Virus record (IMG/VR): IMGVR_UViG_3300031413_000601
DNA from: an uncultured virus (IMG/VR IMGVR_UViG_3300031413_000601)
Taxonomy: Duplodnaviria > Heunggongvirae > Uroviricota > Caudoviricetes
Strand: one strand, 5' to 3'
Length of the DNA stretch: 20,000 bases
In this document: in pieces, positions 7,098 to 15,955 of the stretch
Layout: each line of letters starts with the position of its first letter
Position numbering within the stretch: position 1 is the stretch's first letter
The notes under the pieces: model-generated
What the model saw: the letters and a program-made list of their open reading frames with translations, nothing else
The model's database searches: none
Told to the model about the DNA's origin: nothing
Position numbers and translations under genes: made by a program

Positions 7098-7139
7098 TAT
7101 CCATTCGCGTATTGACTTATCTATTCGTTCGCGTATAGT
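7098..7139 (+). promoter_or_regulatory. pL-like promoter with two OL-like operators (7098-7113, 7122-7137)
   Basis: TTGACT (7112-7117), 16 bp, TATAGT (7134-7139); TATCCATTCGCGTATT is 15/16 identical to the reverse complement of 4858-4873; second site TATTCGTTCGCGTATA. Confidence 0.88.
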
Positions 7140-8352: not shown

Positions 8353-8502
8353 TCCGAATGCGGTCGCCGGGCGCTGCTACCACCCGGCTAGTCATGGCCA
8401 AGCGAAGAAACCGGCCCAGTGGGATCTGAAATGCTCGCGTCGCACTCGCCCCGTGCCGCCGGCCGGCGTATCCGGCCACAACCAACCATAGAAAGGCATC
8501 AC

Positions 8503-8685
8503 ATGGCAGCAGCTACCCCGACCTCTTTCAAACCTGGCCAGAAGGTCACCGTCCGCGCCCGCAGCAAGGTCGTGACCGGCAAGTTCCTCGCAGAGCGCCC
8601 GGGCGCGAAGGGCGTGTACCTCGACATCGACCTGGGCGAAGGCAAGACCGGAAGTTACCGCCCTTCGCAGGTGCAGGCGGCGTGA
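8503..8685 (+). CDS. Small basic SH3/KOW-like beta-barrel protein, 60 aa
   Basis: AAAGG RBS; FKPGQKVTVR...VTGKFL...VYLDIDL...SYRPSQV. Confidence 0.8.
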   Translation: MAAATPTSFKPGQKVTVRARSKVVTGKFLAERPGAKGVYLDIDLGEGKTGSYRPSQVQAA

Positions 8686-8690
8686 CACAA

Positions 8691-8950
8691 CGGCGGCGTG
8701 CAGGCCGCCGGCACTACCCGTCCCGCGCCGGGCAAGCGCGGGAACCACAAGTGATCCGGTTGCAATAAGGGTGGACGGTCCGTCTGCAGACGCGCCGGCA
8801 ATCCGCACCAACCTGCTGGTGTCGCCCGAATACGTGGGCCACGCAGCCGGATCACTTGTGGTGTAGCGCCGAAATGGGAGAAAGACGGCCCTTGAATCCC
8901 ATCTAAAAACAATAGCAGCAGTAGCTGGGCCTGACCGGGGCAGAACCGGT
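8691..8950 (+). ncRNA. Candidate structured non-coding RNA (20-bp duplex enclosing a multi-branch domain, plus flanking hairpins)
   Basis: Inverted repeat 8744-8763/8843-8862 (19 Watson-Crick pairs plus 1 G-U) in a 295-nt gap with no convincing ORF; further hairpins at 8691-8710, 8721-8743, 8874-8902 and 8934-8950. Confidence 0.6.
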
Positions 8951-8980
8951 ACCAACAACGAAACGAACAGGGAGAGCGCG

Positions 8981-9229
8981 ATGCGTGAGGTGAAGATTTT
9001 CAAGTGGGAACAGCAGGTCATCGACGGCGTGCGCAAGAACGTGAAGGTGCTGGATCAAGTGGCGTTGTTCCACCAATTCGGTCAAGAGGCCGACGATGAG
9101 GGGCACTCCAACCCGGTAGCCATCGTGGAGTGCGCTGACGGCCGTGTTGAAACTGTGGTCGCCTGGATGATCCAGTTCGTTGACGCGCCGGGTGCTACGA
9201 CCGCCGAGCCACGGGTGCGTTACGTATGA
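8981..9229 (+). CDS. Hypothetical phage protein, 82 aa
   Basis: GGGAG RBS; FHQFGQE...PVAIVECADGRVETV is a pattern typical of small phage proteins. Confidence 0.85.
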   Translation: MREVKIFKWEQQVIDGVRKNVKVLDQVALFHQFGQEADDEGHSNPVAIVECADGRVETVVAWMIQFVDAPGATTAEPRVRYV

Positions 9230-14491: not shown

Positions 14492-15955
14492 ATGTTCAAA
14501 AACCTTCAGATCTACCGCCTCCCGCGCAATTGGCCCATGACCGCCGAGACGCTGGCCGCCGCGCTGGAGCCGCACGCATTCACGCCGGCCAGCAGCAATG
14601 AGCTGGTCCGCCAGGGCTGGGACGCACCTCGCAAGGACGGCGGCCTCGTGCATGCCGTGAACAAGCAAATGCTGATCCGCCTGCGCGGCGAGAAGAAGCT
14701 GCTGCCAGCCACCGTAATCAACCAGGTGACGAAGGCGCGTTCCGCCGAAATGGAAGAAGCGCAAGGCTTCGCGCCGGGAAAGAAGGCGATGAAAGAATTG
14801 AAGGAACGCGTAGCGGACGAGCTGCTGCCGCGCGCTTTCAGCATCGAGTCGAACATCTGGACTTGGATCGATCCGGTGAACGGATGGCTGGTGGTGGACG
14901 CGGCCAGCCCGTCGAAGGCCGACGAGGTGATCAAGTTGCTGCTCAAGGCCGTGGACAAGCTGCCGCTGGAAAGCCTGCGCGTGCAGCGCTCGCCGGTGGG
15001 CGTGATGACCGAATGGCTGCAAACCGACGAGGCGCCGGCCGGCTTCACCGTGGACATGGACGCCACGCTGCGCGCCACCGGCGAGAGCAAAGCCCAGGTG
15101 GCTTACAAACGCCACACACTGGAGCCGGGCGAGGTCCGCCGCCACATCGAGGCGGGCAAGCAGTGCACGCGCCTGGCCATGACCTGGGACAGCAAGATCA
15201 GCTTCGTGCTGGACGAGACGCTGGCCATCAAATCGATCAAGCCGCTCGACGTGCTGACTGAAGAAACGCGCGGCACCAGCCGCAACGATGACGAGCGCTT
15301 CGACGGCGACTTCATGCTGATGACCGGCGAGCTGGCGAAGATGCTGGCGGACGTGGTCGATGCGCTGGGCGGCGAGGCAACGGTGGATTCGCCCGGCGTG
15401 GAGAAGCGCGCAGCGCCGGGCGTGCAGCCGAAGATCGAGCGCGCCGTGCGCCTGAGCGCTGATCTGTACAAGGTCCGCAGTCACTATCGTGACGGGCTGG
15501 CCGAGCTTTATCAGGAAACCATTGAGCCGGCCATCGCGAGCCTGCACGAGAAGATGTCGGTCACCGGCGAGTGCGCGATTACATGCGCCATTGCCCTGGC
15601 CAAGGCCCTGCCGGCGGGATCGCAAGCCGGGCAGCTTTACCTGGTGGCGGCGGTCGAAATCCTGGAGCCAAGCCTGCGGCCAGCAGCCGGAGACGAGCCT
15701 GTGCGCGAGCAGCGCGTGGTGAAGAGCCTGGGCGCCGACATACCCGCTGGCGACGGCAGCGCCACCGATCCGCTGTACGACCAGGCCGTGGCGGTGGTGC
15801 GCACCAACCAGCGGGCGTCGATTTCGCTGGTGCAGCGACACCTGCGCGTAGGCTACAACCGCGCGGCGCGGTTGCTTGAGGCGATGGAGGGTTCGGTAGT
15901 CGGGCCAATGGTCGGCGACCACCGCGAAGTGCTGGCGCAGGGAGCGGCAGCATGA
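14492..15955 (+). CDS. rdgC: Recombination-associated protein RdgC fused, via an extra helical insert, to an FtsK-gamma winged helix, 487 aa
   Basis: [10 protein letters not shown]...[10 protein letters not shown]...LLPRAFS...[12 protein letters not shown]...[18 protein letters not shown]-terminal [11 protein letters not shown]...[25 protein letters not shown]. Confidence 0.95.

What the first reader, a model, noticed from the sequence alone, without database searches (positions are those of the whole stretch)
8744..8862. 20-bp duplex enclosing a 79-nt cloverleaf-like domain: candidate new phage structured RNA
Seen: ACCACAAGTGATCCGGTTGC (8744-8763) pairs with GCAGCCGGATCACTTGTGGT (8843-8862). 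The only mismatch is a U-G wobble on the + strand, which favours function as + strand RNA over a DNA palindrome. The 79-nt interior holds three sub-hairpins (CGTC-tgca-GACG extended by CGGT/GCCG; GCACCA-acctgc-TGGTGT; GCCC-gaatacgt-GGGC), closable by GTG/CAC into a multi-way junction. It has no TTC T-loop, so it is not a canonical tRNA, and no U-tract, so it is not a terminator. Known analogies: P1 c4 and P4 CI processed antisense RNAs, RNase III-processed phage leaders, and HK022 put elements. Inference: an RNase III-released small RNA or a cis-acting antitermination or anti-defence RNA.
Basis: partly seen in the sequence, partly recalled or inferred. Interest (0 to 1): 0.75.

Follow-up and report, generated by a model that had tools for sequence, protein, structure and literature searches.

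The report
Swappable small-RNA slot in phage operon
The stem is real: it is one filling of a standard RNA 'socket' in the early operon of bacterial viruses, where related viruses carry many different folded RNAs (some tRNA-like) that a host enzyme probably cuts out, though no RNA data yet show it.

Summary
The 20-bp duplex (8744-8763/8843-8862) and three inner hairpins are real; the GTG/CAC closing is not. The element lies in the pL-type early operon of a lambdoid prophage, probably of Duganella. Five distinct homologues keep the fold, with six two-sided changes in the inner hairpins. No Rfam family matches. The larger finding: related phages keep the same frame, a 6-8-bp hairpin flush against a 15-24-bp duplex with a near-invariant ACCACA/UGUGGU base, but fill it with unrelated structured RNAs (37 modules, 15 sequence clusters; one class scores as tRNA). 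In an unbiased recT-anchored sample 15 of 16 close phages carry a module. The E. coli Qin dicBF operon has the same layout, with mapped RNase III double cuts. An in-vivo RNase III matrix moderately favours a cut after bp 8, exactly where the tRNA-like cargos begin. Best reading: RNase III releases a ~105-nt folded RNA from the early transcript, most likely a protein-binding mimic or decoy. Structure and modularity are shown; processing is inferred; the cargo's function is a guess. Not c4, put, REP/MITE, tRNA or coding.

The parts
8721..8743 (+). H1: 8-bp hairpin, 7-nt loop, flush against the duplex; 6-8-bp hairpin kept in all modules, loop sequence not kept
8744..8763 (+). 5' arm of the 20-bp duplex; 8744-8749 (ACCACA) is the near-invariant base shared by unrelated cargos; predicted cut after 8751 (range 8751-8754)
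8843..8862 (+). 3' arm of the duplex; 8857-8862 (TGTGGT) invariant base; predicted second cut 8856/8857
   Evidence: swap joint 8749->8857
8764..8842 (+). 79-nt class-A cargo (uncatalogued), three hairpins and an A-rich 5' junction
8776..8797 (+). P2: 9-bp hairpin, UGCA loop; 4 pairs with two-sided change
8805..8822 (+). P3: 6-bp hairpin; 2 pairs with two-sided change
8824..8839 (+). P4: 5-bp hairpin, nearly invariant; not a canonical T-loop
8752..8856 (+). predicted released RNA, 105 nt, 12-bp closing stem with 2-nt 3' overhang (inferred)
8709..8871 (+). possible outer helix 8709-8717/8863-8871 making a three-way junction with H1 and the duplex; predicted here, not kept in the same form in all class-A loci
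8934..8980 (+). terminal hairpin 8934-8950, C/A-rich leader and Shine-Dalgarno-like site of the next gene; a hairpin plus this leader closes the region in relatives
7112..7139 (+). sigma-70-like promoter (10 of 12), probable pL driving the operon
   Evidence: inference from gene order
8503..8685 (+). 60-aa ORF upstream, no family; not constant next to the module
8981..9229 (+). 82-aa ORF downstream (phrog_11000); varies among relatives

Best explanation
The element is one filling of a modular RNA-processing slot in the early-left (pL-type) transcript of a lambdoid prophage. SHOWN: the fold on the operon strand, its conservation, and a constant frame (flush hairpin + 15-24-bp duplex with ACCACA/UGUGGU base) around exchangeable cargos. 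INFERRED: on induction the operon is transcribed; host RNase III binds the duplex, the flush hairpin stacking under the short base-side helix to complete the second half-site; a staggered cut near bp 8 (8751/8752 and 8856/8857; +/-2-3 nt) frees a ~105-nt RNA clamped by a 12-bp stem and also splits the mRNA. Cargos are exchanged between phages by recombination in the shared hairpin and base sequences. GUESSED: the freed RNA acts in trans by shape, as a mimic or decoy for a host RNA-binding protein or defence nuclease, as its tRNA-like sister cargos suggest. My odds per step: real RNA structure 0.92, RNase III substrate 0.75, cargo acting in trans by shape about 0.55 overall.
For: Class A: 5 distinct sequences, 98.8% of 240 cells paired, 6 of 48 pairs with two-sided change, 0 of 500 shuffles as high. 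Frame: 37 distinct modules in 37 of 38 loci, bp 1-6 near-invariant, bp 7+ free in sequence but paired; 637 WC, 43 G-U, 11 A-C, 12 other on the operon strand; 15 cargo clusters. Unbiased recT sample of 27 loci: 18 duplexes of >=17 bp upstream of recT against 2 downstream in equal lengths; 16 of 18 have a flush 5' hairpin, 2 of 18 a 3' one, background 14%; a module in 15 of 16 close loci. Same flanks with different cargo and a contig that swaps exactly 8750-8856. Qin dicBF: hairpin, 1 nt, duplex with base ACCAUAA/UUGUGG; RNase III cuts at 1649182/1649251 (PMC6212723 supplement) lie 11 nt up the 5' arm with about 7 bp below the second cut. In-vivo matrix: window -22.8, best register 8-10 in 31 of 40 arms; register 8 on 20 arm families -158.7 against -186.0 +/- 7.4, 0 of 1000. 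Rfam tRNA model position 1 falls on bp 9 in 4 of 4 class-C cargos.
Against: No RNA data: expression, ends and cutting are unseen. The outer duplex shows no covariation inside class A (18 of 20 pairs invariant), and 5 sequences at 94% column identity are few and related. The in-vitro box rule gave no enrichment (98 against 95.3 +/- 2.9, 215 of 1000). Register 8 was chosen after seeing the data and many families share the base by descent; the register-free test is marginal (27 of 500; 89 of 500 with bp 1-6 fixed). For the window itself register 10 scores best and register 8 is -25.8; on the Qin control my scoring is about 1.2 units lenient and prefers register 10 where the true cut is 12. The matrix is from E. 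coli, not Duganella. Most cargo interiors do not fold better than shuffles on their own (z between -3.2 and +0.9; class A -1.4). Host rRNA stalks do not carry ACCACA/UGUGGU. Nothing here identifies a binding partner.
Confidence: 0.55

Rival explanations
1. A cis-acting processing site only: RNase III cuts the duplex to split the early polycistron and set stability or translation of the flanking genes; the cargo is a passenger or a folding insulator.
For: In dicBF the cut makes the 5' end of the downstream 190-nt RNA and affects upstream transcript levels (10.1101/2023.04.14.536235, passages). The frame is constant while cargos are unrelated.
Against: Class-A inner hairpins covary; several cargo classes recur in 3-8 variants behind different flanks; tRNA-like cargos keep D- and T-arms and start at bp 9. 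A plain loop would serve for processing.
Confidence: 0.22
2. The released RNA is a base-pairing small RNA (c4-, DicF- or PreS-like) whose loops target phage or host mRNA.
For: Closing stem plus hairpins processed from a longer transcript resembles C4 (PMC5320573, passages); DicF and PreS come from lambdoid early-left operons. Loops are nearly invariant in class A.
Against: No Rfam c4 hit; best match of the cargo in its own genome is a same-strand 14-mer, reached by 25 of 300 shuffles, and loop complements are scattered 6-mers; loops are 4-6 nt; no U-tail. Host mRNA targets were not searched.
Confidence: 0.12
3. RNase P (with 3' trimming), not RNase III, sets the ends; the slot is a decayed tRNA-cluster site and class A a non-tRNA occupant.
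For: A cut after bp 8 is also where RNase P would cut the tRNA-like cargos (established knowledge); tRNA-like pieces lie downstream in relatives.
Against: Class A has no T-loop or acceptor/T-arm stack; no CCA follows the acceptor in class C; the paired 8-bp extension and flush hairpin would not be needed.
Confidence: 0.06
4. A put- or nut-like antitermination element acting on RNA polymerase in cis.
For: Early-left operon; lambda has boxB before its RNase III stem.
Against: About 1.6 kb from the promoter; H1 loop varies freely; one copy only in the record; cargos unrelated.
Confidence: 0.03
5. A DNA-level element: MITE/REPIN, cruciform or recombination site with 6-bp ends.
For: Cargo replaced exactly between the 6-bp ends.
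Against: One pair of arms in the one class-A host genome tested, none in two others; no empty allele among 7 new loci found by the downstream motif; G-U bias on the transcribed strand; inner covariation.
Confidence: 0.02

Closest known systems
E. coli Qin prophage dicBF operon: RNase III stems upstream of dicF and between dicF and dicB
   Same: Lambdoid early-left operon; hairpin 0-1 nt before a duplex with an ACCA/UGG base that loops out a structured domain; double RNase III cut mapped; a short sequence after the Duganella duplex in several loci also occurs after dicF.
   Different: No sequence homology of the class-A element to E. coli genomes; in Qin the known product DicF lies outside the duplex and is a base-pairing sRNA; no library of exchangeable cargos found in the papers I searched.
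Lambda N-leader RNase III stem
   Same: Long duplex enclosing a structured domain in the pL transcript, hairpin upstream (its RNase III role is cited in PMC5371410).
   Different: Promoter-proximal, boxB about 17 nt away with a fixed loop; controls N translation (recalled).
P1/P7 C4 and P4 CI antisense RNAs
   Same: Small multi-stem RNA cut from a phage transcript.
   Different: RNase P, target-pairing loops, Rfam families; none met here.
Phage tRNA-like stable RNAs (for example T4 RNA C/D; recalled)
   Same: Sister cargos C, E and F have acceptor- and T-arm-like ends with an altered or enlarged anticodon domain.
   Different: The window's own cargo is not tRNA-like.
Betaproteobacteria-1 RNA (RF02932)
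   Same: Occurs within 1 kb of the slot in two relatives.
   Different: A separate element; not in the window; no overlap with the module.

Membership tests
C4/CI antisense RNA | Match to an Rfam c4 family | tested here: not met
C4/CI antisense RNA | Loops complementary to target sites in the same phage | tested here: not met
C4/CI antisense RNA | 5' end made by RNase P | not testable with these tools
   no RNA holder
tRNA | Cloverleaf with D, anticodon and T arms | tested here: not met
   window; met for sister class C (35-40 bits)
RNase III processing stem of lambdoid early operons | Duplex with at least 11 bp on one side of the cut | tested here: met
   20 bp; 15-24 bp in 37 modules, hairpin + duplex >= 22 bp in 37 of 37 (rule from PMC1540722)
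RNase III processing stem of lambdoid early operons | On the sense strand of the early-left polycistron, between genes | tested here: met
RNase III processing stem of lambdoid early operons | Base-pair pattern of RNase III sites | tested here: inconclusive
   in-vivo matrix favourable but partly post hoc; in-vitro box rule not enriched
RNase III processing stem of lambdoid early operons | rnc-dependent staggered cut | not testable with these tools
   no RNA reads
HK022 put / nut boxB | Promoter-proximal, fixed loop, copies at both early promoters (features recalled) | tested here: not met
REP/REPIN/MITE | Multicopy in the host genome | tested here: not met
   (3 genomes)
Retron msr-msd | Linked reverse transcriptase | tested here: not met
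   none among the 81 ORF scans of the record; small ORFs outside the window not scanned
Intrinsic terminator | Hairpin followed by U-tract | tested here: not met

The most novel reading that the evidence does not exclude
Lambdoid phages of Oxalobacteraceae and beyond run a standard RNA expression socket: a hairpin-capped RNase III stem that cuts out any inserted fold with defined ends, letting phages swap a library of at least a dozen unrelated structured RNAs (tRNA mimics, C/A-rich and unknown folds) as RNA counterparts of accessory anti-defence genes; the window's RNA is one such decoy.
Probability: 0.3. Interest if true: 0.88.

Novelty: new variant of a known kind. Interest (0 to 1): 0.68.

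Why it matters
Variable slots in phage early operons are where anti-defence and host-takeover genes accumulate; here the variable content is RNA. The frame is a simple handle for finding a dozen or more uncatalogued structured RNAs, all testable in culturable Duganella strains, and it gives precise predictions for RNase III cutting of a short stem completed by a stacked hairpin. It also suggests that the domain looped out of the Qin dicBF stem deserves a look as a product in its own right.

Tried and rejected
No RNA holder listed. Reads were contigs only: a 221-nt contig of a run of unknown kind covers just 8730-8950 and a 169-nt contig of a guessed-RNA run stays inside the cassette, but assembly breaks at shared hairpins would give the same picture, so I take this as no evidence. 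blastn of the region against phages and plasmids gave only chance pieces; the element has no match in E. coli genomes. (0 of 119) used a mistyped pattern and a mis-registered structure; both discarded and repeated. Model R1 found 0 of 28 genomes in the genus of G004 and 0 of 5 distant records: uninformative, R1 is class-A specific. 223 of 249 pattern matches had no long duplex and were dropped as chance or unclear. boxB idea for H1: loop not conserved. 'Hairpin + NCCA = tRNA-like end' idea: not separable from the duplex base and C/A-rich leaders. Cut at bp 4: not favoured by Qin mapping or the matrix. Coding: the GTG start at 8771 is GCG in 4 of 5 homologues. Host rRNA stalk likeness: only 5 nt. 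Gifsy-1 and Burkholderia phage vB_E436: no clear module. The Atlas search for the 60-aa ORF gave only hypothetical clusters.

Full report
Setting. The window is the last third of a 60.3-kb virus record. Gene order cro / cI (4890) / small ORFs / recT / exonuclease / rdgC-like / xis / int marks a lambdoid early-left operon on the + strand, with a promoter-like site at 7112-7139. The element sits in the 295-nt gap between ORFs 8503-8685 and 8981-9229. Named genomes carrying the same frame are Duganella callida, D. lactea, D. guangzhouensis, Duganella sp. OV510, an uncultured Duganella and an Oxalobacteraceae MAG; the window's host is inferred from these.

Observation. The duplex and three hairpins are as described, exceed chance and favour the + strand. 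The GTG/CAC closing is not formed. No Rfam family, tRNA or terminator matches.

Homologues of this RNA (class A). Pattern scans of viral, genome and metagenome contigs and a covariance model gave five distinct sequences. On their alignment 98.8% of 240 cells pair and 6 of 48 pairs change on both sides, four in P2 and two in P3; 0 of 500 shuffles reach this, a control that ignores relatedness. The outer duplex is almost invariant within the class.

The frame. Relatives found through the upstream ORF keep the flanks but have a different insert. Scans for the upstream hairpin (17 viral loci; 9 more of a second hairpin type), for the downstream hairpin (18 loci, 7 new contigs) and in Duganella genomes (8 of 119 by pattern; 10 of 119 by model; 6 of 401 family genomes, 2 of them chance-like) gave 38 loci after removing duplicates and chance-like matches; 37 hold a clean duplex, giving 37 distinct modules (L029 has an imperfect one, the first module of L285 was missed by the filter). 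Duplexes are 15-24 bp; bp 1-6 are near-invariant (bp 4 A-U in 37 of 37, the L284 row being counted three pairs out of register), the rest vary freely but pair; G-U outnumbers A-C 43 to 11 (27 to 8 counting distinct cases). Interiors fall into 15 BLAST clusters, two of which look related to others by eye. One class scores as tRNA with an abnormal anticodon arm and no CCA; the others match nothing in Rfam (loci were not scanned). A 6-8-bp hairpin ends 0-1 nt before the duplex in 37 of 37, against 1 of 37 on the 3' side; most of these were found through that hairpin, so I repeated the test without it. Among 27 loci fetched by recT alone (5 are contigs seen before), 18 duplexes of at least 17 bp lie upstream of recT and 2 downstream; 16 of 18 have the flush hairpin, background 14%. 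15 of 16 close loci carry a module, the exception holding only 2.3 kb upstream; 5 of 11 distant loci show the layout with unrelated sequence. One downstream flank group carries cargos A, B, D, E, H and O, and the window's own flank carries A or I; a public contig replaces exactly 8750-8856 by 87 other letters. L025, L285 and L305 hold two modules.

Mechanism. The E. coli Qin dicBF operon has a hairpin, one nucleotide, then a duplex with base ACCAUAA/UUGUGG around a 46-nt domain. RNase III double cuts listed in the supplement of PMC6212723 map 11 nt up this arm, and 12 nt up a second stem before dicB. Scoring 40 distinct arms with that paper's pair table, the best register is 8-10 in 31, and 31 reach -25.5 (27 allowing for my scoring being about 1.2 units lenient); the window scores -22.8 at register 10 and -25.8 at 8. 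Any well-paired stem scores fairly well, so the shuffle controls matter: 0 of 1000 at register 8 on 20 families (chosen post hoc), 27 of 500 register-free, 89 of 500 with the base fixed; the older in-vitro box rule showed nothing. Independent of scores, register 8 puts the invariant A-U pair at D', the position where the paper reports the strongest A-U/U-A preference, and puts the product's 5' end on position 1 of the tRNA model in 4 of 4 class-C cargos. Only 6 bp lie below the second cut, short of the 11 bp a half-site spans (PMC1540722); the flush hairpin could supply the rest by stacking, and hairpin plus duplex is never under 22 bp. All of this is inference. For the window it predicts a 105-nt RNA, 8752-8856.

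Function of the cargo. No antisense target in the phage beyond chance and no conserved ORF; no reverse transcriptase, ligase or RNase among the ORFs scanned. Covariation, recurrence of classes and tRNA-like sisters point to action by shape; a decoy or mimic role is my best guess and is untested. A cis-only processing role is the main rival.

Literature. Ten searches found no description of this RNA or of exchangeable RNA cargos in such a frame; the library lacks most subscription papers. Seen: PMC1540722 passages and parts 2-3; PMC6212723 passages, section 27, supplement part 1 and search rows; 10.1101/2023.04.14.536235, PMC5371410, PMC12197685 and PMC5320573 passages; PMC10690425 abstract start and spreadsheets searched without hits, but its alignment archives and the supplement of PMC5737381 could not be read, so some cargos may already be listed there as candidates. 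put, nut and T4 RNA features are recalled. Earlier scan notes describe similar layouts elsewhere; they pointed me to dicBF and are not independent support.

Verdict. Real, conserved, uncatalogued structured RNA; a new variant of the RNase III-processed stems of lambdoid early operons, whose new feature is the swappable RNA cargo. Interest 0.68.

Noticed in passing
window 8355-8440: A second conserved structured stretch (hairpin with covarying pairs plus a GGGATCTG motif); in L305 and L306 it lies directly before the slot's hairpin (3 sequences).
   Followed up: partly
L032 1416-1497, L022, L023, L314: tRNA-like cargo with D- and T-arms, an enlarged irregular anticodon arm and no encoded CCA.
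   Followed up: partly
L285 (second module), L289, L309, L025 second module, L034, L334: Large cargos (115-178 nt) with tRNA-like ends and multi-hairpin inserts; no Rfam match in those scanned.
   Followed up: no
L018, L019, L024, L027, L006, L202, L274, L276: Commonest cargo (8 variants), with a single-stranded C/A repeat and GGA motifs; possible sponge for an sRNA or CsrA-type protein (recalled analogy).
   Followed up: no
L310 and L288 cargos: Both contain a small hairpin with a GAAAA loop, like lambda boxB in L356.
   Followed up: no
L284 2065-2189 (-), L290 2476-2606 (+): Betaproteobacteria-1 RNA near the slot, once co-directional and once divergent from the promoter.
   Followed up: partly
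L022, L006 3410-3474, L350 1148-1316, L351 4980-5063: Further tRNA or tRNA-like genes and T-arm fragments downstream of the duplex.
   Followed up: no
L357 2672-2760 and 2943-3094 (Qin): Both dicBF RNase III stems loop out structured domains that could be products themselves.
   Followed up: partly
window 8503-8685: 60-aa ORF, possibly a small SH3/KOW-like barrel by eye; no Pfam or PHROG family; Atlas hits hypothetical.
   Followed up: partly
window 14492-15955: RdgC-like protein fused to an FtsK-like C-terminal domain.
   Followed up: no
L324 7685-8185 (-) and 8737-10293 (+): A PEP-CTERM protein and a serine recombinase inside the prophage, besides the tyrosine integrase in the window.
   Followed up: no
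G000:C1 60116-60250: 14-bp hairpin and a weak tRNA-Val call at the record end, after the integrase; possible attachment site.
   Followed up: no
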